Part shown: positions 9,680 through 35,253 of the stretch, piece after piece | Numbering within the stretch: the stretch's first letter is position 1 | Layout of the letters: each line of letters begins with the position of its first letter | Notes under the pieces: model-generated | Databases searched by the model: none | The model's input: the letters and a program-made list of their open reading frames with translations, nothing else | Told to the model about the DNA's origin: nothing | Made by a program: the position numbers and the translations under genes | NCBI GenBank assembly: GCA_022711115.1 | Contig: JAKLFP010000005.1 | Location: 8,572-72,571 of the forward strand | Reading direction: 5' to 3' | Length of the DNA stretch: 64,000 nt | DNA from: Candidatus Omnitrophota bacterium | GTDB taxonomy: Bacteria; Omnitrophota; Omnitrophia; Omnitrophales; Aquincolibacteriaceae

Positions 9680-9715
9680 ATTTTTTTGAATGTCATTTAA
9701 AAAGGAGAAAATGTC

Positions 9716-10468
9716 ATGACCTATTTGATTATAGCAGGCATTACTTTTTTGAGTGAATATCTTGATTCCGGCCTTGGCATGGGATACGGGACGGCGCTCG
9801 CGCCGATTCTTATTTTGATGGGATTCGACCCGGTTCAGGTCGTACCGGCAGTGCTTATTTCCCAGCTGTTTACTGACATCGCCGCCTGCATCAGCCATCA
9901 TAAAATGTTCAATGTGGATCTGAAGCCGGGCTCACAGGATTTCAAGGCAGCATCCCTTCTGGGATTGATGAGCGTGATTGGGGTCGTGATCGCTGTTTTT
10001 GTGGCGGTCAAGATTCCAAAAAAGATCCTGACCCTGTATATCGGGTTGCTTGTTGCATCCATGGGAGCACTTGTCCTTTATACGACGAATCGGCCCATGA
10101 AGTTCTCCTGGAAGAAATTGATGGGCATCAGCCTTTTGGCCTCTTTCAATAAAGGTATTTCAGGCGGCGGCTATGGACCGCTTGTGATGGGAGGACAAAT
10201 GCTCTCCGGCGTTCACGTCAAGAGTGCCGTCGGGATTACGGCATTTGCCGAAGCCATTACGTGCCTCGCGGGTTTTCTTATTTATATTATTACAGGAAAG
10301 GCTATTGATTGGAAGTTGACGCTTACTTTGATCATTTTTGCGACAGGGGCTGTGCCGGTTGCGGCCATGACCGTCAAGCACGCTCCTTCCGCATCTTTGA
10401 AAAGGTATGTCGGGATTATGATGCTGCTGCTCGGCTTTCTGACCTTAACCAAAGTTGCCGGATCTTAA
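9716..10468 (+). CDS. TauE/SafE (DUF81) family anion transporter
   Basis: 250 aa with 7-8 TM segments and the internal-repeat glycine motifs typical of TauE/SafE sulfite/sulfonate exporter family proteins. It sits directly after cysNC. Confidence 0.75.
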   Translation: MTYLIIAGITFLSEYLDSGLGMGYGTALAPILILMGFDPVQVVPAVLISQLFTDIAACISHHKMFNVDLKPGSQDFKAASLLGLMSVIGVVIAVFVAVKIPKKILTLYIGLLVASMGALVLYTTNRPMKFSWKKLMGISLLASFNKGISGGGYGPLVMGGQMLSGVHVKSAVGITAFAEAITCLAGFLIYIITGKAIDWKLTLTLIIFATGAVPVAAMTVKHAPSASLKRYVGIMMLLLGFLTLTKVAGS

Positions 10469-10593: not shown

Positions 10594-12321
10594 ATGGAAC
10601 GTATACTTCTGATCAATCCATCAGGTTGGCAGAAGGAGAGCATTAATTTAGGACTCTCCTATTTAGCTTCTTCTTTAATGGCCCATGGGTTTGATGTGCT
10701 CATTCTTGATTTGAATCGTTATGAAATGAGCGATGCCGCATTCTTGGAAAATGTCCGTCAGTTTAGTCCTCGTTTGGTTGGAATATCCATAAAAACTGCA
10801 ACAGCACGAGAAGGGGGGCGACTATCGCGACTCCTGAAGGAAGCGATGCCTGAAGTGATTACCGTTGCTGGCGGACCCCACATGTCTCTCTGCCCAGAAT
10901 CTTATATGCGAGATTATCCTTCCATTTCTTTCGGTGTTATGGGGGAGGGTGAGGAAGCTATGGTCCATTTAGCCAAAGCAATATGCAATGGCGGAAAAGT
11001 GGAAAAACTCAACGGGATCGTATGGAGACAGAACGGTCAAATTCTCCTCAATAAATGGATGCCGCCGGAGAACCTCGATGCTCTGATGTTTCCCAACCTT
11101 GATGTGATTCAGGGGTTTAGTTGGAAAAATTTTCGCTACCCAATACTTTCCAGTCGAGGTTGTCCTTTTGGTTGTATTTATTGCTGTGTGAATAAGCTGA
11201 CTGGTTCCAGAAAGTGGCGTTACCGTACTCCGGAAAATGTGGTGGATGAACTGGAATCGCTTGTGCGAACGAAAGGCATCACTTCTTTTGAAATTTGGGA
11301 TGATAACTTTACATTGGACTTGTCGCGTGCGAAAAAAATTTGCCAATTACTTATCGATCGCAAGCTTAATTTATCCTGGTACTGCCATAATGGAATCCGG
11401 GCCGACCGCATTGATGAAGAGCTGGCTCAAATGATGAAAGCGGCGGGTTGCACAAGCCTGGCTTTTGGCGTTGAGAGCGGAAGTCCTGTCACCTTTGCCG
11501 CCATTAAAAAGGGAGAACCCCTTTCCGCAGTCATTAACGCTGTGAAATTAGTCAAAAAGGCCGGTATCAAAGCCGTTGGCTATTTCATCATAGGACTTCC
11601 TGGGGACACTTTGGAAAGGTTTGTTGAAACGGTTTATTTCCAACGATCCCTCGAGTTGGATCATTATGTCTACGGCATGCTCATCCCTTATCCCCATACG
11701 GAACTCTGGGAAATAGTACAAACTCATGGAACTATGTTCTGCGAAATTACCGAAACACAACACTTCAGCGATGACATGGTTCCAATCTCGTTTGAGCTGC
11801 CAGATTTTCCGAAAGCCGATATGATTCGAGCGTTCTATATTGCCAAATATTTCGACTTGTTTGATGCAATCCGGCAGGTTGCTGACAGCGTCAACCTAAC
11901 CGTGGTCCATCATGTCTCTCCTCCCATGATAAGTCATCTGCCGGGCATGTTTATTGCCGGAGGCTCGAAAATTTGCCATGTAGTCGTTGGCGGGGATGAG
12001 GCTGTTGTGCGGGCACTGCCTTCTTTCACGCAGGTACCAAACACAACCAAAATATTATTTTCTGATAACATGCCTTCAGACATTCCTTTTGAAAATCAAA
12101 TAGCTGTCGTCGATCAAGGCTCTAATATATTGGAACGCATTTCTCCCGATTCCGGCCTTGTCTTATTCGATGCGAGGCGGCCGCTTCGTCATTTGACTCT
12201 AGTGCGGCTTCCCAAGGCTGGATCTTTGGGTGCGCGCGGAGCACCTGACAGTGATTTGAAAAACGATGAAAAGAAGAATGTGTTTTCCAAAGCACTGGAT
12301 GCTTTGGGTATTCATCCATGA
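10594..12321 (+). CDS. B12-binding-domain radical SAM protein (copy 1) with C-terminal extension
   Basis: N-terminal Rossmann-like cobalamin-binding region (ILLINPSGW ... VAGGPH). The radical SAM cluster motif is CPFGCIYCC, followed by a glycine-rich SAM motif. About 175 aa of unassigned C-terminal tail. Confidence 0.8.
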   Translation: MERILLINPSGWQKESINLGLSYLASSLMAHGFDVLILDLNRYEMSDAAFLENVRQFSPRLVGISIKTATAREGGRLSRLLKEAMPEVITVAGGPHMSLCPESYMRDYPSISFGVMGEGEEAMVHLAKAICNGGKVEKLNGIVWRQNGQILLNKWMPPENLDALMFPNLDVIQGFSWKNFRYPILSSRGCPFGCIYCCVNKLTGSRKWRYRTPENVVDELESLVRTKGITSFEIWDDNFTLDLSRAKKICQLLIDRKLNLSWYCHNGIRADRIDEELAQMMKAAGCTSLAFGVESGSPVTFAAIKKGEPLSAVINAVKLVKKAGIKAVGYFIIGLPGDTLERFVETVYFQRSLELDHYVYGMLIPYPHTELWEIVQTHGTMFCEITETQHFSDDMVPISFELPDFPKADMIRAFYIAKYFDLFDAIRQVADSVNLTVVHHVSPPMISHLPGMFIAGGSKICHVVVGGDEAVVRALPSFTQVPNTTKILFSDNMPSDIPFENQIAVVDQGSNILERISPDSGLVLFDARRPLRHLTLVRLPKAGSLGARGAPDSDLKNDEKKNVFSKALDALGIHP

Positions 12322-12567
12322 GCATGGATCACAAGATGCCATCCGGACATAGCTGTGACCAGCCACCATGCGGTTTACGCCTTATGATGAAAAATGCTAG
12401 ATCTTTTTTTCTTTCAAAAATTTCATTAAAGACTTCGCTTCAAAGTCTTAAAAAAAATATTGCCGGTATGGGTAAAATCCTGCAAACACTGAAGCCGGAC
12501 CGGAAATTTTTATGGGTAAAAATACAACTCTTGATGAAACGAAAATCGAAACAAAACTTTCCATACG

Positions 12568-13800
12568 ATGAAAATTCTTCATATTTGTGATTGGTATACC
12601 CCTATTGGGGGAGCCGAGAAACTTCTTTTCGGGACACTTGATAGGCTGGAGCAAAAAGGCCACACAAATATCGTGGTTTTCAACGAACATCCCCATCAGG
12701 GCCTGACGGGGAAGCGTGCTGAGTATGCCTGCAAGTTTCTGGAGCTTTTTGTGTATTTTCATCCTGACGCACCCTCTTTCGCAATGCAGTCTATTCCGCG
12801 ACTCAAGGAGATTATTGACCGGCATGCCCCTGATGTCTGTCATATCCACAATTTTCAAAATCCCTATGCGACAGAATTTTTGCTTGAAGAAATTCCCTGC
12901 GTTCGTTCTATTCACGATCCTCGCCTCTATTGTTTTACGAACTGGCGGTTACTGCCGGATCGCAGTATTTGCCCTTACCCTCTTGGTGTTGAATGTCTTC
13001 GACAAGGTTGTTTGTCTTCCGGGCTAAAGCCGAAGACCGATTTTGATAGGAACGCTTTTTGGGTATTGAGGCATCACAACCTGCATAAAAAGATGCCGGC
13101 GCTTATCCTGGAAAGCCGGATGCAAATGGACTGTATGATCCAGAACGGATTTTCACCGAAACAGCTTTTCTGGCTGCCTAATTCGACGTCGATTCAGCCC
13201 ATAACCGAGGTGCGGGAGTTTGTGGAAAAACACCATGACCCGAATGAACGCATCGTTCTGTTTGTCGGGCGGGCTTCGTATGAAAAGGGGATTCATGTGC
13301 TGGTGGAATCTTGTCGGTATCTTCGCAGTGACTGCAAGATTGTAATTATCACAGCGGGTCCTTTGCTTGAAGAGATCCAGCAGCAAGCTGCTGAATTTGG
13401 CGATCGCATTGAGGTGATTCCCGGGCTGTCTTATGAAGAAACCCGGGTCTACTATGCTCGAGCCTCCGTGGTGGCGGTCCCATCGGTTTGGCTTGAAAAT
13501 TTCTGTCTGGTCGGTCTGGAGGCCTTTGCCAATATGAGGCCCGTGATTGGTTCTCGTATCGGGGGTATCCGCGACTGGATGAAAGAGGAAGAGACAGGAT
13601 GGTTTTTTGAGCCGGGGAATTCAAAAGATCTGGCGGCTAGAATCGATAACGCATTCGAGAACAAAGAACGTCTTCAAGCCATGGGTGAGAGTGCGTATCG
13701 GCGAGTACAAACATATTATAACCAGGATCTCTATACCTTTCGTTTGTTAGAAATTTATTCAAAAGGAATCGAATATTTTAATGCTGAGAGGTGTCTGTGA
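12568..13800 (+). CDS. glycosyltransferase family 1 (GT4-like), copy 1
   Basis: N-terminal MKILHICDWYTPIGGAE and a C-terminal GT-B nucleotide-sugar-binding region (EAFANMRPVIGSRIGGIRDW). It is a paralog of the protein at 28071-29342. Confidence 0.75.
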   Translation: MKILHICDWYTPIGGAEKLLFGTLDRLEQKGHTNIVVFNEHPHQGLTGKRAEYACKFLELFVYFHPDAPSFAMQSIPRLKEIIDRHAPDVCHIHNFQNPYATEFLLEEIPCVRSIHDPRLYCFTNWRLLPDRSICPYPLGVECLRQGCLSSGLKPKTDFDRNAFWVLRHHNLHKKMPALILESRMQMDCMIQNGFSPKQLFWLPNSTSIQPITEVREFVEKHHDPNERIVLFVGRASYEKGIHVLVESCRYLRSDCKIVIITAGPLLEEIQQQAAEFGDRIEVIPGLSYEETRVYYARASVVAVPSVWLENFCLVGLEAFANMRPVIGSRIGGIRDWMKEEETGWFFEPGNSKDLAARIDNAFENKERLQAMGESAYRRVQTYYNQDLYTFRLLEIYSKGIEYFNAERCL

Positions 13801-14846
13801 AGGTCGCTTTGGTAAAGACACACAACCAGGTGCGTCTGGATGAGATCAAGACACCTGTGCCGAGTCCGGGTGAGGTTCTGCTTCAAATCGATGCTTGTGG
13901 TGTCTGCGGTAGCGACTATCTTGAGGCGACGGCTTGGGCGCACTCGTGGAAGCGTTTTGGTCATGAAATAGCCGCCACAGTATTTGCTACAGGAAACGGG
14001 GTAGAAGGATTCGCGGTGGGAGATCAAGTGGTTGTGGCGCTCTCTGTTGCTTGTGGGACATGCAAAAGCTGCCTAGCGGGTCATCCAAGACATTGTTCTC
14101 GTCTTATTATTGCAGAGCAAGGCGGTTTTGGAGATTATTTGTTGGTCAAAGATACCCGCCTTTTATTCAAAGTGGAGCCTCGCCTTCCGGTTGAATTAGC
14201 GGTCTTCACAGAGCCTGTTACCGTTGTGTTGGATGCTTTCCATCTTGTTGAATTAAAACCGGAAGATAAATTAGTAGTGATTGGCGGTGGTTTTATCGCC
14301 TGTATCGCTCTTTTGATCGCCAAGATTCTTGGGGTGATCCATCCCTTGGTATTAAGCCGCAAATCTCATCCGCTGCTGGATGCCTGTCTGGCATCGACAG
14401 GAGGGGATTATGTTTCATGGCTTGCAGTGGGAGAACATACGGTGGCAGCGCCAGAGACTTTTGCACAAAAACTCGCAGAACATACAGGACGTGTTGTGGC
14501 CATCCATACAGCTCCCGCCAAGTTCATGCCTCTTTATATTGAAAAATTGCCCTATGATTCTTGTGTCGTGAATTTGGGTTTGTCTGCAAGCGACAAAGAT
14601 AATGAGATGCCATTGGATGCATCGCGGCTTATTTTTAAAAGAATGCAAATTATGAGTGCTTTTCCGGTTCCCTGTCTTTACCTTGCGGAGGCGGTTCATC
14701 TTCTCCAGAAAAATCAGGATTTATTTTCTCTCCTGACCCCTGAAAGTCTTCCTCTCGAGCGGTTACCGGAAGTGATTGCAGCACCCCGGAAATTAAAACG
14801 TAAAATCATGATCGTTTCCCAACCGTCCGGAGGATTACGATCATGA
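13791..14846 (+). CDS. zinc-dependent medium-chain dehydrogenase/reductase (sorbitol/threonine dehydrogenase-like)
   Basis: CGVCGSD and GHE catalytic-zinc motifs, a structural-zinc Cys cluster (CGTCKSC...C) and a GGGFIA Rossmann motif. The start is 13791 (GTG) or 13797 (GTGA overlap with the upstream stop). Confidence 0.75.
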   Translation: MSVKVALVKTHNQVRLDEIKTPVPSPGEVLLQIDACGVCGSDYLEATAWAHSWKRFGHEIAATVFATGNGVEGFAVGDQVVVALSVACGTCKSCLAGHPRHCSRLIIAEQGGFGDYLLVKDTRLLFKVEPRLPVELAVFTEPVTVVLDAFHLVELKPEDKLVVIGGGFIACIALLIAKILGVIHPLVLSRKSHPLLDACLASTGGDYVSWLAVGEHTVAAPETFAQKLAEHTGRVVAIHTAPAKFMPLYIEKLPYDSCVVNLGLSASDKDNEMPLDASRLIFKRMQIMSAFPVPCLYLAEAVHLLQKNQDLFSLLTPESLPLERLPEVIAAPRKLKRKIMIVSQPSGGLRS

Positions 14847-17023
14847 GCTCAAAAGGTTCGCATACCAGGCCTATTTTTATCACCGCAAGGTTTCGAAGCG
14901 GTTCCACCCTTCTCTGGAATCTTTTTCGCAACCTACCGGGTTGCCTTGCTTTTTATGAACCCTGCAATGACCTTCTCACCACTCATATCGAGATAGATAC
15001 CAAACCCCCTCCGTCACATCAGGGAGTGACTTCCTATTGGGACGAGTATCGACCTATATTGGAAGAGTTGCGTTTGCGGTATCGTCAGGAATTCGGTCTG
15101 AACCATTTGTATTTAGAAAACCAGGATACGTATCCTGATTTTGAGAATTATATCCGTTTTTTGCTGAAAGCAGCTTCGGGAAAAGTCCCGGTGCTCCAGT
15201 TTAACCGAATAGATTTTCGTCTGCCATGGCTGCGCGAACGCTTTCCGAATGCATTTATTTTACACCTTACCAGAAATTCCAGAGATATGTGGTTTTCCAT
15301 GATACGAGGTCTCTCGGGTGAATCCTGGCGGGATCCTTTGGAAAACACGAACTATGATCTTTTGCTGTGGTCTGTAGCTCTTTCCAGTGAGTTTCCGTTT
15401 CTGTTTAGTCCTGAAGTTAAAACGACCTATCATCGTCATTATCTTCTCTGGCGGCTCAGTGGGCTCATGGGGACACAGCAAGCTGACATGACGCTGGATT
15501 TTGATCGTGATCTGCTTGGAACCCGGGAGAAGACACTTCAATTAATCACAGATCTTGTGGGAGCTGACAACGCGGAGATCGAACGTCTTGCGAAGCTGGT
15601 GGTCATGCCCGAAACTGGCGGTTGGAGAAAGTTGATCGATGGGCGCTGGTTTACTAAGGCCGAAATGGAATGTGATGCGCTTCTCGAAGAGTTAGGGCTT
15701 TTGGAGGATTTTGGGAAAAAACCGCTTGCAAGCATAAGAAAAAAACATCTTTCAGCATGGAATCATGCGACAGCTGCGGCAACGGAAAGGGTGGCTAAAG
15801 CGTCCGCAAAACTGTTCGGAATGCTGCGACGGGACCGGCTAGTTTTAGGTAAGGATCATGAACAATATGTGATCAATAGTGGAAATGTTATTCGCCATGA
15901 TAAAAAGTTGCTCGAGGATGCCGCTCACCGTTTAAACTCCGTGCAACAAAACTTTCAGGAAGCAGAGGAGTCGTTGCGTCTCAAACAGCAAGCATTTGAA
16001 GAAAGCCAAAAGGTTTTAGCAAACACCCAGACTGCACTTGAAAATAAGAGGCAGGAACTGGTTACGATCAATCAGCGTTATTCGGAGGTGCAGGAACAAT
16101 TACGCGCCAAGCAGCAAGCATTTGAAGAAAGCCAAAAAGTTTTAGCAAGCACCCAGACTGCACTTGAGAATAAGCGGCAGGAGCTGGTTTCGATAAACCA
16201 GCGTTATTCGGAGAAGCAGGAACAATTACGCGTCAATCAGCAAGCATTGGAAGAAAGCCAAAAGGTTTTAGCAAGCACCCAGACTGCGCTTAACAGTAAG
16301 AACCAGGAGTTGGTTGCGATAAATCAGCGTTATTCAGAGACGCAGGAACAATTACGTGTCAATCAGCAAGCATTCGAAGAAAATCAAAAAGTTTTGACGG
16401 GTACGCAGACTGAGCTCAACAGTAAGAGTCAGGAGCTAGCGGCGCTAAGCCAGTGTTTTTCAGAGACGAAGGATCTGTTGCGTGTCAAGCAGCAGGAATT
16501 CGAGGAAAGCCAAAAAGTTTTAGCAAACACCCAGACTGCGCTTGAAATTGAGAGGCAGGAGCTGGTTGCGATAAATCAGCGTTATTCGGAGACGCAGGAA
16601 CAATTACGCGTCAAACAGCAAGCATTTGAAGAAAGCCAAAAAGTTTTAGCAAGTACCCAGACTGCACTTGAAAATAAGAGCCAGGAGTTGGTTGCGATCA
16701 ATCAGCGTTATTCGGAGACGCAGGAACAATTACGTGTCAATCAGCAAGAATTCGAGGAAAGCCAAGAGGCTCTTTCGGATGCGCAAAATGGACTCAATGA
16801 AAAAGAGCGGGAACTCATTTTGATGAAGGAGACTCTTGGAGAAATGCGCCTGGAATTACACAAAGAAAGATCGGAGCTGGAAAATGCGCAAGAAATACTT
16901 ACTAATACAAGAATTATTTTAGCCCAAAATGAACAGATTTTGCGTGAAACCGCGCTTAGGGTTCAGCCGAAGCAATTTTTTCAAAAAAATTTCATAATTA
17001 AAAAAATAAAAAAATTTTTTTAA
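14843..17023 (+). CDS. sulfotransferase-domain protein with long C-terminal coiled-coil repeat region and basic amphipathic C-terminus
   Basis: The N-terminus has the PAPS 5'-phosphosulfate-binding motif (PIFITARFRSGSTLLWNLF) and the 3'-phosphate-binding motif (LHLTRNSRDMWFS). Residues about 378-671 are 7 tandem 42-aa heptad-like repeats (LRxKQQAFEESQKVLAxTQTALENKxQELVxINQRYSExQEQ). The C-terminal tail is KQFFQKNFIIKKIKKFF. ATGA overlap with the upstream gene. Confidence 0.75.
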   Translation: MSSKGSHTRPIFITARFRSGSTLLWNLFRNLPGCLAFYEPCNDLLTTHIEIDTKPPPSHQGVTSYWDEYRPILEELRLRYRQEFGLNHLYLENQDTYPDFENYIRFLLKAASGKVPVLQFNRIDFRLPWLRERFPNAFILHLTRNSRDMWFSMIRGLSGESWRDPLENTNYDLLLWSVALSSEFPFLFSPEVKTTYHRHYLLWRLSGLMGTQQADMTLDFDRDLLGTREKTLQLITDLVGADNAEIERLAKLVVMPETGGWRKLIDGRWFTKAEMECDALLEELGLLEDFGKKPLASIRKKHLSAWNHATAAATERVAKASAKLFGMLRRDRLVLGKDHEQYVINSGNVIRHDKKLLEDAAHRLNSVQQNFQEAEESLRLKQQAFEESQKVLANTQTALENKRQELVTINQRYSEVQEQLRAKQQAFEESQKVLASTQTALENKRQELVSINQRYSEKQEQLRVNQQALEESQKVLASTQTALNSKNQELVAINQRYSETQEQLRVNQQAFEENQKVLTGTQTELNSKSQELAALSQCFSETKDLLRVKQQEFEESQKVLANTQTALEIERQELVAINQRYSETQEQLRVKQQAFEESQKVLASTQTALENKSQELVAINQRYSETQEQLRVNQQEFEESQEALSDAQNGLNEKERELILMKETLGEMRLELHKERSELENAQEILTNTRIILAQNEQILRETALRVQPKQFFQKNFIIKKIKKFF
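15974..16855 (+). repeat. 7 x 126-bp in-frame tandem repeat inside the sulfotransferase gene
   Basis: Repeat units start at 15974, 16100, 16226, 16352, 16478, 16604 and 16730. Long stretches are identical between units (for example caagcatttgaagaaagccaaaa(g/a)gttttagcaa). Confidence 0.85.
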
Positions 17024-17056
17024 ATAACCGGCAATTCATTCCAAGAAAGGAAGAGT

Positions 17057-18790
17057 ATGGAAAACAAAAAAACTACACTTATCGAATTGGCTCTTTCACG
17101 ATTTAATTTCGCATTTAAAAAACCGAACAATTTTTTTGCAATGTTGCTTAGATACTTTTTAAAAGCAAAGAATAGAAATGATGCGATACCGACATTTATT
17201 AATTTAATTCATTCCCAGCATCCTTATGGGATGACAGTCAATGGTGTTGGTGGTCTGCAAGAAGGTGATAAGGGTTTGTATCGCTGGTTTTCAGGAAGTG
17301 AGACAATACTCCGATTCAAGTTGCCTCAGGAAAAAAATATGCAACTCTGTCTGGATTTTTACAACACCTTTCCTAACCAGAGCATATCGGTCATAATCAA
17401 TGGCCATGTCATGGAATCTTTTAATGATATTCATCCCGGGGCCAGAATAAAAAAACGGTACTCTTTTGAGGGGCATGCCAGTAACGAAATCGTACTGCAA
17501 TATAAAAAAACAAATAAATCACTCAAGCTTTATCCTGACGACGCAAGAGATTTAGCGGCAATCTTTTTTGAATTCAAAGTTCTTTTTAGCGATGTAAATG
17601 CGAACCGCCATTTGCAACGATTCGATCTTTCGTCGATTACATATCTTGGATCACCCCTTAAAAACGCTAGGCTGAATCGAGAAGAATATGAGAAGGGGCG
17701 AACGATTCTGAGAAGTCTTCCTTCTGTGGTAACATTAGCCTTGACGACATATTGCAACAATAAGATCCCGTGCCTCATTTGTGACAGGGTTACCCGTAAT
17801 AGGGTCACTGATTGCGACATCAGTGAAGAAATAATTAACAGTGCCAGTCCATTGCTTAAAACCGCGATGTATGTATTATTACATTCTGGTGGGGAGGCGA
17901 TGCTCTCACGACATTATGATAAACTAATAAAAGAAATTAATCCTCCCACACGAGTTTCTTTTGCTACAAACGCCATGCTCATGACGCCTAAACGGGCGGA
18001 TCTGATGCTTGAGAGGGATATTATGGCCGGTATCGTCATATCGTTAGATGCGGCTACGCCGGAGATGTACCGGCTCATGAGGCCAGGTTCGAACTTTGAA
18101 ACCGTGATTAAAAATGTCGCTTATTATATTGACAAGGCTAAAAGTTTAAATCGACATCACTCTAATGTTGATCTTAATATGACGCTTTGCAACTCCAATA
18201 TCATGGATGTCCCTAAACTGGTTGATCTTGCAAAGAAAATTGGTGCCCGCAGCATAAGTTATACTCATCTTAATATCGGGCTTCACCACAAAGTTCAGAC
18301 AGTCGAGGGTTGGGAGTGGGATTATGTCGAACAGATGAATTTTAAAAACAAGGAGCTGCATGACGATTTACTTTTTGAAGCCTATACTACAGCGAAAAAA
18401 AATGGGATAGTCATTTCTCTGCCATCGAATCGTCCCTACATCGGAAAAAACGCAGAAAAATATAATCAGTCAATGCTCAAAACTCCTTGTGAAATTCCTT
18501 TTCAAGAGAGTCAAGGGGTAAAGCATTGGGATTCGCGGTATCATCATAAGATCGCACCCCATATTCCGCTATGTTTTAAGCCTTGGCAGGAAATAGCTAT
18601 TCTCCCGGACGGGGCAACAAGAATTTGTTGCTTCCATGGTAGGGAATTCTACATTGGATATCTTCGGATGAACAATTTTATGAACATTTGGAATTCCGAT
18701 GTAATGGTAGCAACTCGGGAGCAATTTCTGGCTCATGGTGTGGCTCGTGTATGTGTAGAGTCGCAGCCTTGTCCTCACCGCCCGAAGTAA
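17057..18790 (+). CDS. radical SAM-like protein with non-canonical Cx5Cx2C cluster motif and Cys-rich (SPASM/twitch-like) C-terminus
   Basis: TYCNNKIPCLIC followed about 40 aa later by the glycine-rich SAM motif LLHSGGEAML. The C-terminus has CCFHG...CVESQPCPH. About 220 aa of N-terminal domain could not be assigned. Confidence 0.5.
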   Translation: MENKKTTLIELALSRFNFAFKKPNNFFAMLLRYFLKAKNRNDAIPTFINLIHSQHPYGMTVNGVGGLQEGDKGLYRWFSGSETILRFKLPQEKNMQLCLDFYNTFPNQSISVIINGHVMESFNDIHPGARIKKRYSFEGHASNEIVLQYKKTNKSLKLYPDDARDLAAIFFEFKVLFSDVNANRHLQRFDLSSITYLGSPLKNARLNREEYEKGRTILRSLPSVVTLALTTYCNNKIPCLICDRVTRNRVTDCDISEEIINSASPLLKTAMYVLLHSGGEAMLSRHYDKLIKEINPPTRVSFATNAMLMTPKRADLMLERDIMAGIVISLDAATPEMYRLMRPGSNFETVIKNVAYYIDKAKSLNRHHSNVDLNMTLCNSNIMDVPKLVDLAKKIGARSISYTHLNIGLHHKVQTVEGWEWDYVEQMNFKNKELHDDLLFEAYTTAKKNGIVISLPSNRPYIGKNAEKYNQSMLKTPCEIPFQESQGVKHWDSRYHHKIAPHIPLCFKPWQEIAILPDGATRICCFHGREFYIGYLRMNNFMNIWNSDVMVATREQFLAHGVARVCVESQPCPHRPK

Positions 18791-18852: not shown

Positions 18853-19638
18853 ATGATTAAATTAATACGCCATAATCGTCACCTGATTGCATCGATGGTT
18901 GCGCGCAATCTAAAGGCCCGATTTGCCGGGACTGCCATGGGAATACTCTGGTCATTTTTTTTACCACTCGTCCAGGTTTGTATCTATACCTTTGTATTCT
19001 CTGTCATCATGCATGCCAAAGCCCTTGGAGAATACCAGCATGTGCCGTTTCCGATATGGCTCTGCGCAGGGTTACTTCCTTGGAACATGTTTAGCGAGGG
19101 TTTGGGGATGGCTGTAGGTTCCATTACCGGGAATTCTCACATTGTCAAAAAGACGATGTTTGATAAAAGGATATTACCGCTTTGTTCGGTTATTACCAGT
19201 CTTGTCAACCACGGTATCGCTCTTTCAGTCCTGCTGGTTTTTATGTTGTTTTTCGGAATCCGTCCGGGATGGACCCTTTTGTGTTTGCCCCTAGTGAGCG
19301 TGATCGTGTTCTTATGGACGCTAGCTTGGGCCTATATCGTTGCCGCTTTGAATGTTTTTTTGCGTGATATCAGTCAAATGGTGGGAGTTATTTTAAACTT
19401 TTGTTTTTTTGCAACGCCTATTGTTTATTCTAAGGATCTTGTGCCGCCGGTTTTTGGAATGATTGTCAAAGCAAACCCGTTTTTTTATCTTTTACAAGCG
19501 TACCGAGAGATTATTTTGCTGAACAAGCTGCCCAATATTTTTGAATTATGCGTCGTCACAGCAGGGATCACGCTTTTTCTGTCTGCTGCGGTTTATTTAT
19601 TTAAGATTTTATCGTACGATTTTGCCGACTCTCTTTAG
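18853..19638 (+). CDS. wzm: ABC-2 type polysaccharide export permease (Wzm/TagG family)
   Basis: 261 aa with 6 TM segments. The N-terminus NRHLIASMVARNLKARFAGTAMGILWSFFLPL is characteristic of Wzm/KpsM-type permeases. Confidence 0.8.
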   Translation: MIKLIRHNRHLIASMVARNLKARFAGTAMGILWSFFLPLVQVCIYTFVFSVIMHAKALGEYQHVPFPIWLCAGLLPWNMFSEGLGMAVGSITGNSHIVKKTMFDKRILPLCSVITSLVNHGIALSVLLVFMLFFGIRPGWTLLCLPLVSVIVFLWTLAWAYIVAALNVFLRDISQMVGVILNFCFFATPIVYSKDLVPPVFGMIVKANPFFYLLQAYREIILLNKLPNIFELCVVTAGITLFLSAAVYLFKILSYDFADSL

Positions 19639-19655: not shown

Positions 19656-20978
19656 ATGGAAAATAAAGTACTGATCACGGTGGATGAGATATCGAAAAAA
19701 TACAAATTGTATAATAAGCCGTTTGACCGGTTGAAGGAATTGGCGGATCCCTTCCGGAGGCAATATCATCGTGATTTTTGGGCCCTTCGCGATATTTCTT
19801 TTGAAGTCCGCAGGGGAGAAAGCGTGGGTATTATTGGCGTGAATGGCAGCGGTAAATCCACCCTGCTTCAAATCATCTGCGGGATATTGAAACCCACGAA
19901 AGGTCAGGTGGAGGTCAACGGACGGATTTCAGCGCTCCTGGAGCTTGGGTCGGGATTCAATCCTGAATTGCCCGGCCGTGACAATGTCTATCTGCAAGGG
20001 GCTATGCTGGGATATTCGCCTCAAGAAATGAAAAGAAAATTTAACAAGATAGTAGAATTTGCGGATATCGGTGATTTTTTGGACCAGCCGGTTAAAACAT
20101 ACTCGTCCGGTATGATGATCCGTTTGGCATTCGCAGTGGCGATTCAGATTGATCCCGAAATTTTGATCGTCGACGAAGCCCTTTCCGTGGGAGATGTTTT
20201 TTTTCAGTCGAAATGTTTTCGAAGAATCGAAGAGCTATGCAACAAAGGTGTCACGATCTTATTTGTCTCGCATCAGCTAAGTACGATCCAATCCGTGTGC
20301 CAAAAGGCTATTCTGCTCGACAAGGGAAGGATTGTCTGCCAGGGAGATTCCAGAACCACAGTGGAGGCTTACATCCGTCATATTGCCACGTTGCATGGAG
20401 CCAGGGATATGGCAACGATCCAAGAAGATATACGGATTGAAAAAGAAGTCAAGGAAACGGTCGCCGCGGAAGATCATTCGAAAGACAACCTGGGCGATGA
20501 ACGTTTTTCAGCAACGAATCGTTATGGGACCGGCAAAGCGAGGCTTCTAAAATATGTCGTCAATGATTTGAATAATTGCAAGCAGATAGTGGTTCAATCC
20601 GCGGCTTCTTTAAAGATCCGGTTGACCTATAAAACACATGCGAGGATAGAAAAACCTTTTGTGGCTATTCGTATCAATACTGTTACAGGTGTTCAGATCT
20701 ATGGCAATAATACGACCTTTGCTAACGTTTCTTTGGAGTCTTGTTCAAAAGGAGATGAGATTGAAGTGGAGTTTGAGCAGTATTTGTACCTGAATCAAGG
20801 AAGCTATTTGCTGACATTCGCTTTTGCCGAATGGGGTGAACATGGGAAAGTAATCCATATCGATCGGTTTGTTGATGCGGTTCACATTAATGTAGCCGGC
20901 GGTCCTTATCCCTACGCCGGAATATGTAATTTTCAAGGGAAAGTAACCGTGCTTAATCATACGAAACAGGAGGCATGA
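19656..20978 (+). CDS. wzt: polysaccharide ABC exporter ATP-binding protein with C-terminal glycan-binding domain (Wzt/TagH family)
   Basis: Walker A GVNGSGKSTL, ABC signature YSSGMMIRLAFA and Walker B ILIVDEALSVGD, plus a C-terminal domain of about 190 aa as found in Wzt. Confidence 0.85.
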   Translation: MENKVLITVDEISKKYKLYNKPFDRLKELADPFRRQYHRDFWALRDISFEVRRGESVGIIGVNGSGKSTLLQIICGILKPTKGQVEVNGRISALLELGSGFNPELPGRDNVYLQGAMLGYSPQEMKRKFNKIVEFADIGDFLDQPVKTYSSGMMIRLAFAVAIQIDPEILIVDEALSVGDVFFQSKCFRRIEELCNKGVTILFVSHQLSTIQSVCQKAILLDKGRIVCQGDSRTTVEAYIRHIATLHGARDMATIQEDIRIEKEVKETVAAEDHSKDNLGDERFSATNRYGTGKARLLKYVVNDLNNCKQIVVQSAASLKIRLTYKTHARIEKPFVAIRINTVTGVQIYGNNTTFANVSLESCSKGDEIEVEFEQYLYLNQGSYLLTFAFAEWGEHGKVIHIDRFVDAVHINVAGGPYPYAGICNFQGKVTVLNHTKQEA

Positions 20979-22734: not shown

Positions 22735-24858
22735 GTGATTTCCGGAAATTTAGATTTTTTAAAGGCATTAAAACGGCAAGAAAAATGGTTGTCAGGGATT
22801 GTCTTATGCGGGGTCATTTTTTTAATTTGGTCCTGGGTACATAGCCGTACTTCGATGGTCGCTTGGCAAACACCGCTGCGTTATGAAGGGGGGAAAGATG
22901 TTGCATTCGTTCTAGCTTATGCAAAGGCATTCATGGATGGTGATATTTTCCCTGTTTTGTCTAAGTGGGTGTCGCATCTGAATGCCCCTTTTTCTGCCAA
23001 TTGGAACGACTATCCTGTAACGGATGAATTTATCTACGCAGCCATGGGCTGGATTGGTAAGGGGATAGGCCTTTTCCCAGCGGCTAATCTTATGGTTCTT
23101 TTGGCGCATTTATTGACGGGGCTATCCTTCTACTACGTGGGCAGAAAATTAAAATATCGTCTTGCCTTTGTCTTCGCGGGCGCCGTTCTGTTTACTTTTT
23201 TCCCTTATAGTTTCCCACACAATTTAGTAAATATTATGTATTCCTATTACGGGCATATACCGTTAATGTTGCTAGTGAGCTGGTGGGCCTTTTCATCGAC
23301 GACGCCCCAAATTAAGAGCCGAAAATGGTCCATAGCGGTTGTCATTGCTGCGATCTCGGGCACGTTTAATGTATACTACACAGGAATGTTTCTGCAGTTT
23401 CTCGGATTTACGGTGTTGCTGCATCTTGCCAGGAAGGAGTATCGTCTCATCACCTTTCCCCTATTGTTGATCGGAGTCACTGTGGCTAGTTTTCTAATTA
23501 TGAATGCTGATACTCTAAGCTATACATGGTTTCACGGACAAAACCCTCAAGCCATTGTTCGTAACTTGACATCTTTGGATAAATTTGCCTTAAGGATTCC
23601 CTCACTGGTATTTCCTCAAGATCATCACCGTTGGCATGCTTGGGCTGAATACGGGCAGAGCCATTACTTTATTCCCACAATGATAGAAGGGGAAAAAAAG
23701 GGGGGGTATCTTGGTTTGGTTGGGTTGGCTGGATTGATGTGGCTGACGGGAACAAGTTTGTTTCGCCTCCTCCAAGGTAAGTTGAACCTGATTCCTATAC
23801 ATGCATGGCAAATCCTTTGGGTTTTGCTGTTTTCTCTTGCGGGTGGCATTAATCTTCTTTTAGGGACATTCGGATTTGTTTTATTTCGCTGTACGTTTCG
23901 GTATGGCCTTTTCATATTCGCTCTTGTTTTATTATTCTTAGTACGCCAACTCTCTCGGAAATGTTCCCCCAAATGGACTATACCCTTAGCATGTGGAATT
24001 ATCGTTATTGGCTTATGGGATCAATTACCTCCTAAAGATTCACCGGCCGAAATTCAACGCATAGCTAATTTTATGAAATCTGAACGTAATTTTTCAAAAG
24101 AATTAGAAGCGCAATTACCTCAGGATTCGATGGTATTCCAATTGCCTGTTGTCGCCTTTCCAGAGACTCGCCCCATATATCAGATGACTGATTATGAGCA
24201 TTTTAGACCATATTTGTTTACACGACACCTGCATTACTCTTATGGTACTAATAAGGGCCGGCGTGATGCCGATTGGCAAGTGGTGGTCAATAAATTAACT
24301 CCAGCAGATATGATTGCTAAACTAGAATCTTATGGATTTGGCGCGATTATCATTAACCGCAAGGGATATGAAGACAAAGCTGTACAGTTACTTGAGGGCA
24401 TAGTCGCTACGGGTCGGTCCATCATTGCGGATAACGGTGAATTGGTTGCGATCAAATTAAAGCCTATGGCAAAGCCGATTCTTCCAGAGATACCCCCGTT
24501 TTATAGCACTGGCTGGTCGTTAGATGAGGGCACTCACAGATGGGCCATCTCAAGGCATGCCGAAATCAACATTTTTAATAATGACAAAAAACCAAAGCAG
24601 GTAACTATAAAATTCGCCTTAATCACTTTAAAACCGAGAAATGTACGAATCGGAATTAATGGTACAACATTACAAACTGCCTCGCTAGACAACACTAATG
24701 CAAAGCCATATTTTGAATTGGTATCCGTAACCTTGAATCCTGGTGGAAATTCCTTGTTTATTGATACAGATGTCCCTCCTCAATATCCGGGGAATAATGA
24801 TTCGCGTAAAATATCCTTTGGAATTTCTGGTTTTATGATTAAAGAGTACCAAACATGA
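22735..24858 (+). CDS. large polytopic membrane protein with C-terminal soluble domain (GT-C/YfhO-like architecture), function unknown
   Basis: 707 aa with about 12 TM segments in the first roughly 430 aa, then a soluble domain of about 270 aa. Putative GTG start. Confidence 0.5.
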   Translation: MISGNLDFLKALKRQEKWLSGIVLCGVIFLIWSWVHSRTSMVAWQTPLRYEGGKDVAFVLAYAKAFMDGDIFPVLSKWVSHLNAPFSANWNDYPVTDEFIYAAMGWIGKGIGLFPAANLMVLLAHLLTGLSFYYVGRKLKYRLAFVFAGAVLFTFFPYSFPHNLVNIMYSYYGHIPLMLLVSWWAFSSTTPQIKSRKWSIAVVIAAISGTFNVYYTGMFLQFLGFTVLLHLARKEYRLITFPLLLIGVTVASFLIMNADTLSYTWFHGQNPQAIVRNLTSLDKFALRIPSLVFPQDHHRWHAWAEYGQSHYFIPTMIEGEKKGGYLGLVGLAGLMWLTGTSLFRLLQGKLNLIPIHAWQILWVLLFSLAGGINLLLGTFGFVLFRCTFRYGLFIFALVLLFLVRQLSRKCSPKWTIPLACGIIVIGLWDQLPPKDSPAEIQRIANFMKSERNFSKELEAQLPQDSMVFQLPVVAFPETRPIYQMTDYEHFRPYLFTRHLHYSYGTNKGRRDADWQVVVNKLTPADMIAKLESYGFGAIIINRKGYEDKAVQLLEGIVATGRSIIADNGELVAIKLKPMAKPILPEIPPFYSTGWSLDEGTHRWAISRHAEINIFNNDKKPKQVTIKFALITLKPRNVRIGINGTTLQTASLDNTNAKPYFELVSVTLNPGGNSLFIDTDVPPQYPGNNDSRKISFGISGFMIKEYQT

Positions 24859-29342: not shown

Positions 29343-29484
29343 AATTTTAACGTAGAAATAAAACCCTTTCTCGCGTTTTTAGGCGAAATTCACAATAACT
29401 TAAAGTGCGGTGTAGTGAAAAGCATAGAGGTTGATGAATATGACTGTCGATCTTGAACTCGAAGCTAAAGTGGAATAACCGATC

Positions 29485-35132: not shown

Positions 35133-35253
35133 GAGAAATTCCTCATATGAGTAATAAATATTATTCATTTACTTTATACATCGAACTGTGCCATAATGCA
35201 ACCCTTAAATGGGCAACTCAAAAGCTTTCTGCAGTTCTAACCAGGAGGAAATC

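What the first reader, a model, noticed from the sequence alone, without database searches (positions are those of the whole stretch)
17057..18790. Radical SAM-like protein with Cx5Cx2C instead of CxxxCxxC, an unassigned 220-aa N-terminal domain and a Cys-rich C-terminus
The only three-cysteine cluster upstream of the glycine-rich SAM motif (LLHSGGEAML) is YCNNKIPCLIC, spacing 5/2 rather than the canonical 3/2. Non-canonical spacings are known in only a few families (for example HmdB-like). The C-terminus has CCFHG and CVESQPCPH, which could ligate an auxiliary cluster (SPASM/twitch-like). It sits between the sulfotransferase-ruler gene and wzm, so it is probably another glycan-tailoring enzyme. 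The N-terminal 220 aa have no feature I can place.
Basis: seen in the sequence. Interest (0 to 1): 0.6.

Follow-up and report, generated by a model that had tools for sequence, protein, structure and literature searches.

The report
Glycan-binding radical SAM enzyme, variant motif
This gene encodes a real radical SAM enzyme with an unusual but strictly conserved iron-sulfur motif and a sugar-binding-like front domain, and it probably works with a neighbouring sulfotransferase "ruler" to finish a sulfated cell-surface polysaccharide, a job not yet described for this enzyme class.

Summary
ORF 17057-18790 (+) encodes 577 aa with C233-x5-C239-x2-C242, a GGE motif and a Cys-bearing C-terminus. Pfam Radical_SAM and SPASM both pass their thresholds.

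- **Motif:** all 56 close homologues carry Cx5Cx2C (50) or Cx6Cx2C (6). More distant relatives are canonical, so this is a fixed 2-3-residue insertion and not an error.
- **C-terminus:** it is a BtrN-type twitch domain, not a full SPASM domain. Four invariant Cys (506, 524, 566, 572) are present, and three align to BtrN C169/C187/C232.
- **N-terminus:** residues ~46-177 form a confident β-sandwich resembling CBM6/CBM35. It is a mobile module with no Pfam model (496 representative proteins), fused elsewhere to AlgX-like acetyltransferases, FkbM methyltransferases, GT-C enzymes and B12 radical SAM enzymes.
- **Context:** long-form homologues lie in a conserved module of B12-rSAM, GT4, ADH, sulfotransferase-coiled coil, this gene, wzm and wzt(Wzt_C). 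One natural protein fuses the sulfotransferase, coiled coil, CBM-like domain and rSAM.

Most likely it is a polymer-level glycan-tailoring radical enzyme partnered with the sulfotransferase ruler. The chemistry is unknown; a BtrN-like oxidation is my leading guess. I rate it a new variant of a known kind, of moderate to high interest.

The parts
17057..18790 (+). Whole gene: 577-aa radical SAM/twitch protein with an N-terminal CBM-like domain. It is identical to an NCBI 'radical SAM protein' from a Candidatus Omnitrophota MAG.
   Evidence: ORF; Pfam; 100% identical protein P0001; SD-like AAAGGAAGAG at 17046-17055
17078..17167 (+). N-terminal basic/amphipathic helices (aa 8-37), poorly conserved and modelled with low confidence. 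Possible docking or membrane-association segment (inference).
   Evidence: AF2 secondary structure and pLDDT 37-52; variable in alignment
17192..17587 (+). CBM-like β-sandwich domain (aa ~46-177). It is a mobile module with no Pfam model. Conserved residues are G63, R76-W77, Q108, N115, N143 and R164.
   Evidence: Domain model pLDDT 90.4; Foldseek hits to CBM35/CBM6/BcsB at E ~3e-5, TM 0.4-0.56; 496 representative proteins; partner domains; conserved columns
17720..18436 (+). Radical SAM partial TIM-barrel core (aa ~222-460)
   Evidence: Pfam PF04055 over aa 229-360; AF2 β/α pattern; Foldseek matches to BlsE, DesII, SuiB, SkfB, MoaA and anSME
17753..17782 (+). CNNKIPCLIC: the Cx5Cx2C motif (C233, C239, C242), presumed ligands of the SAM-binding [4Fe-4S] cluster. 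It carries a 2-residue insertion relative to CX3CX2C, and P238 is nearly invariant.
   Evidence: Translation; invariance; 50 Cx5 + 6 Cx6 of 56 members; HMM alignment to BtrN/BlsE places a 2-residue gap
17888..17896 (+). GGE motif (G278-G279-E280), the SAM amino-group binding motif
   Evidence: Translation; G279 and E280 invariant, G278 >=90%
18188..18190 (+). C378, an invariant Cys at the C-terminal end of a core β-strand (LNMTLC). It is not part of either cluster motif. It is a candidate active-site residue such as an H-atom donor (inference).
   Evidence: Invariant; strand 371-377 followed by a helix; translation
18572..18772 (+). Twitch-type auxiliary-cluster domain: C506-x12-G519-x4-C524 ... 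C566-x5-C572
   Evidence: Pfam SPASM 37.2 bits (cutoff 21.5) over aa 506-555; four invariant Cys; alignment to BtrN C169/C187/C232; translation
14843..17023 (+). Partner gene: Sulfotransfer_3 domain plus a long coiled coil (726 aa). Fused to a homologue of the target in P0070.
   Evidence: Pfam; fusion; synteny; 126-bp x 6.2 tandem repeat at 15981-16765
18853..19638 (+). wzm (ABC-2 permease), conserved immediately downstream
   Evidence: Pfam; synteny
19656..20978 (+). wzt ATPase with a Wzt_C carbohydrate-binding domain, the type that recognises terminally modified O-polysaccharide
   Evidence: Pfam PF14524 E 2e-26; synteny
10594..14846 (+). Conserved upstream triad: B12-binding radical SAM (10594-12321), GT4 glycosyltransferase (12568-13800) and Zn-type ADH (13791-14846)
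   Evidence: Pfam; present in 8/8 long-form loci

Best explanation
The protein is an active radical SAM enzyme of the twitch (BtrN-like) subclass.

**Cluster sites (inferred from sequence).** A [4Fe-4S] cluster held by C233/C239/C242 binds and reductively cleaves SAM. The cluster loop is lengthened by two residues, one of them a conserved Pro. A second, fully Cys-ligated [4Fe-4S] cluster sits on C506/C524/C566/C572.

**Substrate and partners (inferred from architecture and context).** In this long form, an N-terminal CBM-like β-sandwich holds a glycan chain. The enzyme acts at polymer level on a lipid-linked, sulfated O-polysaccharide-type glycan made by the ABC-transporter (Wzm/Wzt) pathway. 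It works as the partner of the upstream sulfotransferase-coiled-coil 'ruler'. Together they resemble a WbdD-like two-enzyme terminating or tailoring unit whose product is exported by Wzm and the CBM-bearing Wzt.

**Chemistry (guess).** The 5'-deoxyadenosyl radical abstracts a sugar C-H hydrogen. The auxiliary cluster then takes the electron, as in BtrN, so the net reaction would be oxidation of a secondary alcohol to a ketone or an elimination that follows from it.

**What is shown:** motif conservation, fold, domain homologies, synteny and the fusion. **What is inferred:** cluster binding, a polymer substrate and partnership with the sulfotransferase. The exact reaction is a guess.
For: Radical SAM identity:
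- Pfam PF04055 and PF13186 both exceed their thresholds.
- GGE and the three Cys are invariant.
- The AF2 model has pLDDT 88.8 and its best PDB matches are BlsE and DesII, both sugar-acting enzymes, at E 2e-11.

Twitch assignment:
- The family profile's best PDB match is BtrN (E 3e-9 to 4e-9). C506, C524 and C566 align with C169, C187 and C232.
- BtrN's auxiliary cluster has Cys4 ligation and is proposed to act in electron transfer (PMC10337720).
- The best NCBIfam hit is the twitch subfamily NF033640.

Glycan substrate:
- The N-domain folds as a CBM6/35-like jelly roll.
- The same module is attached to AlgX-like SGNH acetyltransferases, FkbM methyltransferase, Acyl_transf_3, GT-C/PMT and B12-rSAM enzymes.

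Partnership with the sulfotransferase:
- The gene order B12-rSAM/GT4/ADH/sulfotransferase/target/wzm/wzt recurs in Maridesulfovibrio, Desulfovibrio and other metagenomic contigs; one further contig, L005, holds the same genes in a different order.
- P0070 is a single 1019-aa polypeptide combining sulfotransferase, coiled coil, N-domain and a Cx5Cx2C rSAM. It is seen in two assemblies in the same module.

Sulfated product: cysD, cysNC, TauE and three sulfotransferase genes lie in the cluster.
Against: - No biochemical data exist for any family member, and the literature searches found none.
- About half of the family are short forms of ~400 aa that lack the CBM-like domain. Some of these sit in less clearly glycan-related contexts.
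- The closest structural relatives, BlsE, DesII and BtrN, act on small molecules, not polymers.
- The N-domain's match to CBMs is only moderate (TM 0.4-0.56, E ~1e-5). No ligand-binding residues could be checked.
- Similarity to BtrN is remote, so the chemistry cannot be transferred.
Confidence: 0.5

Rival explanations
1. It modifies a soluble nucleotide-sugar or sugar precursor, as DesII, BlsE and BtrN do. It would supply an unusual monomer to the glycosyltransferases rather than acting on the polymer.
For: The top structural and profile matches are small-molecule sugar enzymes. Short forms lack the CBM-like domain. An ADH-type dehydrogenase and GT4 are always nearby, as in precursor pathways.
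Against: The CBM-like module is otherwise attached to enzymes that act on polymers or lipid-linked glycans. The gene is fused to, or adjacent to, a coiled-coil sulfotransferase and wzm/wzt rather than to nucleotidyltransferases. No sugar-nucleotide synthesis genes were found next to it.
Confidence: 0.25
2. The enzyme, substrate class and partners are as in the best explanation, but the chemistry is redox-neutral or reductive. Examples are epimerisation or deoxygenation with invariant C378 as the H-atom donor. The auxiliary cluster would then be structural or serve to re-reduce the enzyme.
For: C378 is invariant, lies outside both cluster motifs and sits at the end of a core β-strand. From my own knowledge, radical SAM epimerases use an active-site Cys as H-donor.
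Against: No positional evidence places C378 near the substrate. The four-Cys twitch site matches the dehydrogenase BtrN best.
Confidence: 0.15
3. It is a SPASM-type peptide or protein maturase, such as an anSME-like sulfatase maturase or a RiPP enzyme, that happens to lie in a glycan cluster.
For: There is a Pfam SPASM hit. anSME, SuiB and SkfB are among the Foldseek matches. Weak NCBIfam hits to maturases were also seen.
Against: Only four conserved C-terminal Cys are present, so there is no second auxiliary cluster. No RiPP recognition element or sulfatase domain was found among the roughly 45 larger window ORFs scanned with Pfam; small precursor-peptide ORFs were not searched for, and the lone phosphodiesterase-family protein lacks a sulfatase C/S-x-P-x-R signature in context. 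Synteny is with glycan genes across phyla.
Confidence: 0.05
4. The lengthened Cys loop has abolished SAM-cluster function, leaving a catalytically dead scaffold or glycan-binding subunit, as in the pseudo-SAM/SPASM families.
For: The spacing is non-canonical. There is a weak NCBIfam hit to a pseudo-SAM/SPASM family.
Against: All three Cys, GGE, and the core S329, D331 (SLDAAT) and N305 (ATN) residues are invariant or nearly so over deep divergence, which implies purifying selection on the catalytic site. Functional families with CX4 to CX11 spacing are known (PMC9477430).
Confidence: 0.05

Closest known systems
BtrN (2-deoxy-scyllo-inosamine dehydrogenase, the prototype twitch radical SAM enzyme; PDB 4M7S/4M7T)
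   Same: It is the best PDB match to the family profile. It has a radical SAM core plus a short C-terminal domain with one auxiliary [4Fe-4S] site. Target C506, C524 and C566 align to BtrN C169, C187 and C232. Its substrate is carbohydrate-like.
   Different: BtrN has canonical CX3CX2C (C16/C20/C23) and a CX2C final pair, whereas the target has Cx5Cx2C and Cx5C. BtrN is 250 aa with no N-terminal domain. It acts on a free aminocyclitol in an antibiotic pathway. The similarity is visible only by profile (E ~4e-9), so the two are not orthologues.
BlsE (cytosylglucuronate decarboxylase) and DesII (TDP-4-amino-4,6-dideoxyglucose deaminase/dehydrogenase)
   Same: These are the top Foldseek matches to the AF2 model (E 2e-11). 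BlsE is also the second profile hit. Both are radical SAM enzymes that abstract H from a sugar ring.
   Different: Sequence identity is 11-16%. Both have the canonical motif and soluble nucleoside or nucleotide-sugar substrates. Neither has a CBM-like domain or an O-polysaccharide context.
SPASM-domain maturases (anSME, PqqE, SuiB, SkfB)
   Same: The Pfam SPASM model matches aa 506-555, and the CX9-15GX4C hairpin is present.
   Different: The CX2CX5CX3C block and the seventh Cys are missing, so only one auxiliary cluster is possible. No peptide substrate or RiPP recognition element was found.
HmdB/HcgA-type radical SAM enzymes (Cx5Cx2C)
   Same: They share the Cx5Cx2C spacing of the SAM-cluster cysteines (literature).
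   Different: No specific sequence relationship was detected; the NCBIfam hits shown are all SPASM/twitch, MoaA or viperin types. HmdB-type enzymes belong to a different pathway (FeGP cofactor in methanogens) and have a different architecture. The shared spacing looks convergent.
WbdD (E. coli O9a chain terminator and molecular ruler)
   Same: A coiled-coil protein carrying two tailoring activities, encoded next to wzm and a wzt with a C-terminal CBM. Here the sulfotransferase-coiled coil and the rSAM are adjacent, and in P0070 they are fused (WbdD described in PMC3482155).
   Different: WbdD's modules are a kinase and a SAM methyltransferase. Here they are a PAPS sulfotransferase and a radical SAM enzyme with a CBM-like domain. 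No sequence homology exists between the systems, and a terminator role is not demonstrated.
CBM6/CBM35-type carbohydrate-binding modules (and the CBM appended to AlgX-family acetyltransferases)
   Same: The N-domain has a β-jelly-roll fold. The same module is appended to AlgX-like SGNH domains in many proteins.
   Different: It belongs to no Pfam or PDB sequence family. Structural similarity is moderate. Sugar binding is untested.

Membership tests
Radical SAM superfamily (PF04055) | Profile match above Pfam's gathering threshold | tested here: met
   39.5 bits against a cutoff of 29.5, over aa 229-360
Radical SAM superfamily (PF04055) | Three conserved Cys in the loop after β1 that ligate the SAM-binding [4Fe-4S] cluster | tested here: met
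   C233, C239 and C242 are invariant in 35 sequences and present in all 56 family members
Radical SAM superfamily (PF04055) | Canonical CX3CX2C spacing | tested here: not met
   The spacing is Cx5Cx2C here and in 50 of 56 relatives, and Cx6Cx2C in the other 6. Canonical spacing appears only in outgroups. Variant spacings are accepted within the superfamily (PMC9477430).
Radical SAM superfamily (PF04055) | GGE SAM-binding motif and partial (β/α)6 barrel | tested here: met
   G279 and E280 are invariant. The AF2 β/α core matches rSAM crystal structures at E 1e-11 to 1e-8.
Radical SAM superfamily (PF04055) | Reductive cleavage of SAM to the 5'-deoxyadenosyl radical | not testable with these tools
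   Requires anaerobic biochemistry
SPASM domain (two auxiliary clusters) | Profile match to PF13186 and the CX9-15GX4C motif | tested here: met
   37.2 bits against a cutoff of 21.5. C506-x12-G519-x4-C524 is present in all members.
SPASM domain (two auxiliary clusters) | Seven or eight Cys including CX2CX5CX3C, ligating two [4Fe-4S] clusters | tested here: not met
   Only C506, C524, C566 and C572 are invariant in the C-terminal domain. There is no CX2CX5CX3C block.
Twitch domain (BtrN-like, one auxiliary cluster) | A truncated SPASM domain with 3-4 Cys positioned as in BtrN | tested here: met
   The profile alignment maps C506, C524 and C566 to BtrN C169, C187 and C232. The numbering was checked against BtrN's C16/C20/C23 motif. 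The fourth Cys is shifted, giving Cx5C instead of Cx2C.
Twitch domain (BtrN-like, one auxiliary cluster) | NCBIfam NF033640 (N_Twi_rSAM) curated cutoff | tested here: not met
   63.8 bits against a cutoff of 170. It is the best NCBIfam hit but falls well below threshold.
BtrN orthologue (DOIA dehydrogenase) | Close sequence similarity and a butirosin or aminoglycoside gene context | tested here: not met
   The single sequence finds no PDB relative. Only the profile reaches BtrN, at E ~4e-9. The context is O-polysaccharide export.
HmdB/HcgA-like Cx5Cx2C enzymes | Specific sequence relationship beyond the shared Cys spacing | tested here: inconclusive
   None of the 25 NCBIfam families shown (of 31 hits) is HmdB or HcgA. 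No direct comparison was run.
WbdD-type O-polysaccharide terminator/ruler system | A coiled-coil protein with tailoring domains, encoded with wzm and a Wzt that carries a C-terminal CBM | tested here: met
   Upstream gene: Sulfotransfer_3 plus a long coiled coil with a 42-aa x 6.2 repeat. Wzt_C scores E 2e-26. The P0070 fusion joins the sulfotransferase, coiled coil and rSAM.
WbdD-type O-polysaccharide terminator/ruler system | Modification of the non-reducing terminus that stops polymerisation and licenses export | not testable with these tools
   Needs genetics and glycan structural analysis
Carbohydrate-binding module (CBM6/35-like) for aa 46-177 | β-jelly-roll fold similar to known CBMs | tested here: met
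Carbohydrate-binding module (CBM6/35-like) for aa 46-177 | Sequence membership in a described CBM family | tested here: not met
   The window's own domain matches no Pfam family. Among 17 homologues there are only scattered sub-threshold hits (CBM_35 in 1 of 17, E 0.037). There is no PDB sequence hit, and it is unrelated to the neighbour's Wzt_C by hhalign.
Carbohydrate-binding module (CBM6/35-like) for aa 46-177 | Binds a carbohydrate ligand | not testable with these tools
   Indirect support only: its partner domains are glycan-modifying enzymes

The most novel reading that the evidence does not exclude
A radical SAM enzyme is an integral catalytic module of an O-polysaccharide chain-terminating 'ruler' complex made of a sulfotransferase, a coiled coil, a CBM-like domain and the twitch rSAM. 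In this reading it performs radical C-H chemistry directly on the non-reducing end of a lipid-linked polysaccharide, and creates, together with sulfation, the terminal epitope read by the Wzt carbohydrate-binding domain. As far as my searches show, this would be the first radical SAM enzyme shown to act on a polysaccharide and the first in glycan chain-length control.
Probability: 0.3. Interest if true: 0.8.

Novelty: new variant of a known kind. Interest (0 to 1): 0.6.

Why it matters
Radical SAM sugar chemistry is known for small molecules such as aminoglycosides, nucleoside antibiotics and deoxysugars. It is not known for assembled bacterial surface polysaccharides.

A conserved family that joins a twitch radical SAM core to a glycan-binding-like module, and is sometimes physically fused to a sulfotransferase ruler beside Wzm/Wzt, points to a new class of anaerobic polymer-level glycan tailoring. 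It may also be a new type of chain terminator.

The family also gives a clean natural example of a lengthened (Cx5/Cx6) SAM-cluster loop inside the SPASM/twitch group, which is useful for understanding how much that loop can vary.

The CBM-like module itself has 496 representative proteins and no Pfam model. It is a candidate new domain family that marks glycan-modifying enzymes.

Tried and rejected
- **Single-sequence PDB search:** only chance hits with E > 0.5. The family profile was needed to reach BtrN and BlsE.
- **Pfam scan of the N-domain and 16 homologues:** no consistent family. The profile against PDB sequences gave nothing.
- **hhalign of the N-domain against the neighbour's Wzt_C domain:** no relationship, probability 0.5%. 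I therefore dropped the idea that it is a duplicated Wzt CBM.
- **anSME-like sulfatase maturase idea:** rejected. No sulfatase was found among the window ORFs scanned, and the one phosphodiesterase-family protein lacks the C/S-x-P-x-R signature in context.
- **Second family copy in the window:** an HMM search of all window ORFs found no second copy of the N-domain or of the rSAM family.
- **Literature searches:** I searched for radical SAM with O-antigen, Wzt, CBM and twitch-sugar terms. No characterised homologue turned up, and the two Xanthomonas hits were irrelevant.
- **Short-form contexts (L004/L010, L013):** uninformative or not obviously glycan-related.
Full report
**1. The observation**

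The ORF at 17057..18790 (+) is real. It is 577 aa with an ATG start, preceded by a purine-rich SD-like stretch at 17046-17055. Nt 17753-17782 encode CNNKIPCLIC, which is C233-x5-C239-x2-C242. GGE lies at aa 278-280. The C-terminus reads C506FKPWQEIAILPDGATRIC524C525...C566VESQPC572. The protein has 12 Cys in all, and no other three-Cys cluster precedes GGE.

The exact protein exists in NCBI as a 'radical SAM protein' from a Candidatus Omnitrophota MAG. Window GC is about 0.40-0.50 with no local anomaly at the gene.

**2. Is the odd motif real biology?**

A database search returned 56 close relatives (E <= 1e-86). About half are long forms of 500-594 aa and half are short forms of 364-445 aa. 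After these there is a sharp drop to remote radical SAM/SPASM proteins.

In a 35-sequence alignment, C233, C239 and C242 are invariant and P238 is nearly so. G279, E280, T304, S329, D331 and A332 are also invariant, and N305 is nearly so; all fall in stretches typical of SPASM/twitch-type cores.

All 56 members have Cx5Cx2C (50) or Cx6Cx2C (6). The remote hits P0057-P0059 have the canonical spacing. HMM alignment to BtrN and BlsE places a two-residue gap inside the loop, so the family carries a fixed 2-3-residue insertion.

Two more distant sister groups also have lengthened loops. One is a ~390-aa protein with CCINPPCLIC, found just after wzt in L005 and L009. The other is CNVTPPCVQC in L013. 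Further outgroups are canonical.

Variant spacings from CX4 to CX11 are documented in RadicalSAM.org, including a CX5CX2C cluster (PMC9477430). The spacing is therefore unusual but not unprecedented.

**3. Domain anatomy**

Pfam gives Radical_SAM over aa 229-360 (39.5 bits, cutoff 29.5) and SPASM over aa 506-555 (37.2 bits, cutoff 21.5). No NCBIfam model reaches its cutoff. The best is the twitch subfamily NF033640, at 63.8 bits against 170.

AlphaFold2 with the family alignment gives a confident model (pLDDT 88.8, pTM 0.86). It has four parts:
- low-confidence N-terminal helices (aa 8-37);
- an all-β domain (aa 46-177);
- a β/α core (aa ~222-460);
- a small C-terminal domain.

Foldseek against the PDB ranks BlsE (7VOB) and DesII (8HZV) first at E 2e-11, followed by SuiB, SkfB, MoaA and anSME.

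The family profile searched against PDB sequences finds BtrN best (E 3e-9 to 4e-9) and BlsE second. In that alignment target C506, C524 and C566 pair with BtrN C169, C187 and C232. I checked the numbering against BtrN's own C16/C20/C23 motif.

BtrN's auxiliary cluster has Cys4 ligation (PMC10337720). That its ligands are C169, C187, C232 and C235 is from my own knowledge.

Only four C-terminal Cys are invariant: 506, 524, 566 and 572. C525 of the 'CC' pair is usually Tyr. The domain is therefore a twitch domain with one auxiliary cluster, not a full seven-Cys SPASM domain. Its last pair is spaced Cx5C instead of BtrN's Cx2C.

C378 is a further invariant Cys at the end of a core strand, outside both motifs.

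**4. The 'unassigned' N-terminus**

Modelled alone, aa 41-197 fold confidently (pLDDT 90.4) into a nine-to-ten-strand β-sandwich. The best PDB matches are CBM35, CBM6, the BcsB carbohydrate-binding domain and the receptor-binding domains of binary toxins, at E 3e-5 to 1e-4 and TM 0.4-0.56. The full-length model also drew hits to CE2 esterases and GH26-CBM35 enzymes.

The domain has no Pfam family and no PDB sequence relative. It is not related to the neighbouring Wzt_C domain.

A profile of the domain searched against 1.84 billion representative proteins found 496 proteins at E <= 1e-3 and 212 at E <= 1e-10. The domain mostly sits at the C-termini of longer proteins, sometimes in two or three tandem copies.

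In a sample of 20 of these proteins, the partner domains were:
- AlgX-like SGNH acetyltransferase, in 10 of the 20;
- FkbM methyltransferase;
- Acyl_transf_3;
- GT-C/PMT_2/TMEM260-like glycosyltransferases;
- glucose/sorbosone dehydrogenase with cytochrome c;
- a B12-binding radical SAM enzyme;
- in P0070, a sulfotransferase plus rSAM.

This is the distribution expected of a glycan-binding module used by polymer-level tailoring enzymes on either side of the membrane. Conserved polar and aromatic positions are G63, R76-W77, Q108, N115, N143 and R164.

**5. Genomic context**

The window cluster reads as follows:

| Coordinates | Gene |
|---|---|
| 5353 | Wzy_C/O-antigen-ligase-like |
| 6843 | cysD |
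| 7748 | cysNC |
| 9716 | TauE |
| 10594 | B12-rSAM |
| 12568 | GT4 |
| 13791 | Zn-type ADH |
| 14843 | sulfotransferase-coiled coil |
| 17057 | the target |
| 18853 | wzm |
| 19656 | wzt with Wzt_C |
| 20975, 21821 | two more sulfotransferases |
| 22735 | 707-aa unknown |
| 25052 | GDSL |
| 26221 | second B12-rSAM |
| 28005-31687 | GT4, GT4, GT2 |

This is a PAPS-supplied, ABC-transporter-dependent pathway for a sulfated polysaccharide.

The run B12-rSAM/GT4/ADH/sulfotransferase/target/wzm/wzt recurs in Maridesulfovibrio frigidus (L001), L002 and L006. L005 holds the same genes in a different order, with wzm-wzt upstream of the sulfotransferase and the target, and the B12-rSAM/GT4/ADH triad downstream of it. 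The run also recurs in genome-collection loci from Maridesulfovibrio and Desulfovibrio MAGs. A Terriglobia locus (L011) keeps relatives of the triad genes nearby, but it is interrupted by a transposase and only the ADH was confirmed by Pfam there.

By tblastn, all 8 long-form loci have relatives of the triad. Six of 8 have the sulfotransferase and 6 of 8 have wzm/wzt. The exceptions are a truncated contig and the transposon-disrupted locus.

Short forms are more variable:
- tandem paralogues next to wzm-wzt in L003;
- GT4 plus methyltransferases in L014;
- an unclear context in L013 and L004.

**6. The fusion**

P0070 (1019 aa) is one polypeptide. It combines Sulfotransfer_3 (aa 5-178), a coiled coil, the N-domain (aa 457-588) and a Cx5Cx2C radical SAM/twitch region (CNNRTPCVIC). 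It appears in two assemblies, each time between ADH and wzm in the same module.

This Rosetta-stone fusion is the strongest evidence that the two adjacent window genes form one functional unit.

The window's sulfotransferase protein has a 126-bp x 6.2 tandem repeat encoding 42-aa coiled-coil units. Orthologues range from 372 to 726 aa, as expected for a variable ruler.

**7. Mechanism**

I take four things as shown:
- a conserved radical SAM site with a lengthened loop;
- a BtrN-type four-Cys site;
- a CBM-like module;
- genetic and physical linkage to a coiled-coil sulfotransferase and to Wzm/Wzt(CBM).

From these I infer the following. The enzyme binds two [4Fe-4S] clusters, cleaves SAM and abstracts a sugar C-H hydrogen on the nascent lipid-linked glycan held by the N-domain. 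It acts together with the sulfotransferase as a WbdD-like tailoring or terminating unit (WbdD: PMC3482155).

The reaction type is a guess. BtrN-like two-electron oxidation is favoured by the Cys4 twitch site. An epimerase or reductive route using C378 is the main alternative.

A precursor-level role on a nucleotide-sugar remains plausible, because the nearest characterised relatives are small-molecule enzymes and the short forms lack the CBM-like domain. A peptide-maturase role or a dead-enzyme role is unlikely.

**8. Comparison and novelty**

The protein is a member of the radical SAM superfamily and of the twitch structural class. It is not a member of any curated equivalog family and is not a BtrN orthologue. 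I found no specific link to HmdB-type Cx5Cx2C enzymes.

Four things are new:
- a rare clade (56 clusters among 5.8 billion sequences) with a fixed Cx5/Cx6 loop inside the SPASM/twitch group;
- its N-terminal module, which has no Pfam model and is CBM-like;
- its conserved placement in O-polysaccharide ABC-transporter clusters of mostly anaerobic lineages (Omnitrophota, Desulfovibrionales, Terriglobia/Acidobacteriota, Pirellulales);
- its occasional fusion with a sulfotransferase ruler.

No paper in the searchable library describes such an enzyme.

I rate it a new variant of a known kind, with interest 0.6. The most novel reading not excluded is a radical SAM module of a chain terminator acting on the polymer. 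I give that about 0.3 probability.

Noticed in passing
window 15981-16765 (within gene 14843-17023): There is a 126-bp tandem repeat of 6.2 copies at 83% match, encoding 42-aa coiled-coil units in the sulfotransferase 'ruler'. Orthologous sulfotransferase proteins range from 372 to 726 aa, so coiled-coil length varies between lineages, as expected for a chain-length ruler.
   Followed up: partly
L029 7670-10729 and L030 3442-6501 (protein P0070): A natural 1019-aa fusion combines sulfotransferase, coiled coil, CBM-like domain and a Cx5Cx2C radical SAM/twitch region. It sits in the same B12-rSAM/GT4/ADH/.../wzm/wzt module and was seen in two assemblies.
   Followed up: yes
L005 6812-7978 and L009 13933-15102: A sister clade of ~390-aa radical SAM/SPASM proteins has the loop CCINPPCLIC (Cx4 or Cx5 spacing) and is encoded immediately after wzt. 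A third variant, CNVTPPCVQC, occurs in L013 19853-21151 (-). Lengthened SAM-cluster loops therefore mark a wider group; the L005 and L009 members lie beside wzm/wzt.
   Followed up: partly
window 10594-12321 and 26221-28074: Two B12-binding radical SAM genes lie in the same cluster. Their best NCBIfam hits are only weak (BchE and HpnJ classes). The first forms a conserved triad with GT4 and a Zn-type ADH in all long-form loci. Elsewhere a B12-rSAM (P0076, 813 aa) carries the same CBM-like module at its C-terminus.
   Followed up: partly
window 13791-14846: The conserved ADH-family protein's best NCBIfam hit is scyllo-inosose 3-dehydrogenase IolM (weak: 90.6 bits against a cutoff of 450). The target's closest characterised relative is an inosamine dehydrogenase (BtrN), and HpnJ-like B12-rSAMs are present too. 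Together these hint that a cyclitol-like or otherwise rearranged sugar may be made. This is speculative.
   Followed up: no
window 22735-24858: A 707-aa ORF inside the polysaccharide cluster has no Pfam or NCBIfam match at all.
   Followed up: no
window 6843-10468: cysD, the cysN-cysC fusion and a TauE-type exporter sit at the head of the cluster, with three sulfotransferase genes (14843, 20975, 21821) further along. The cluster thus carries a dedicated PAPS supply for a heavily sulfated glycan. The same PAPS genes accompany the homologous cluster in L005.
   Followed up: partly
window 35209-36261; also L001 1021-2046, L002 18749-19714, L006 2748-3797: A ~320-350-aa protein with an autotransporter β-domain recurs close to the homologous polysaccharide clusters in several unrelated contigs. 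It may be an outer-membrane component linked to this glycan.
   Followed up: no
window 45135-46517 and 58494-59849 (-): Two paralogous LssY_C-domain proteins flank an ABC exporter and OEP efflux region. They are unrelated to the finding.
   Followed up: no
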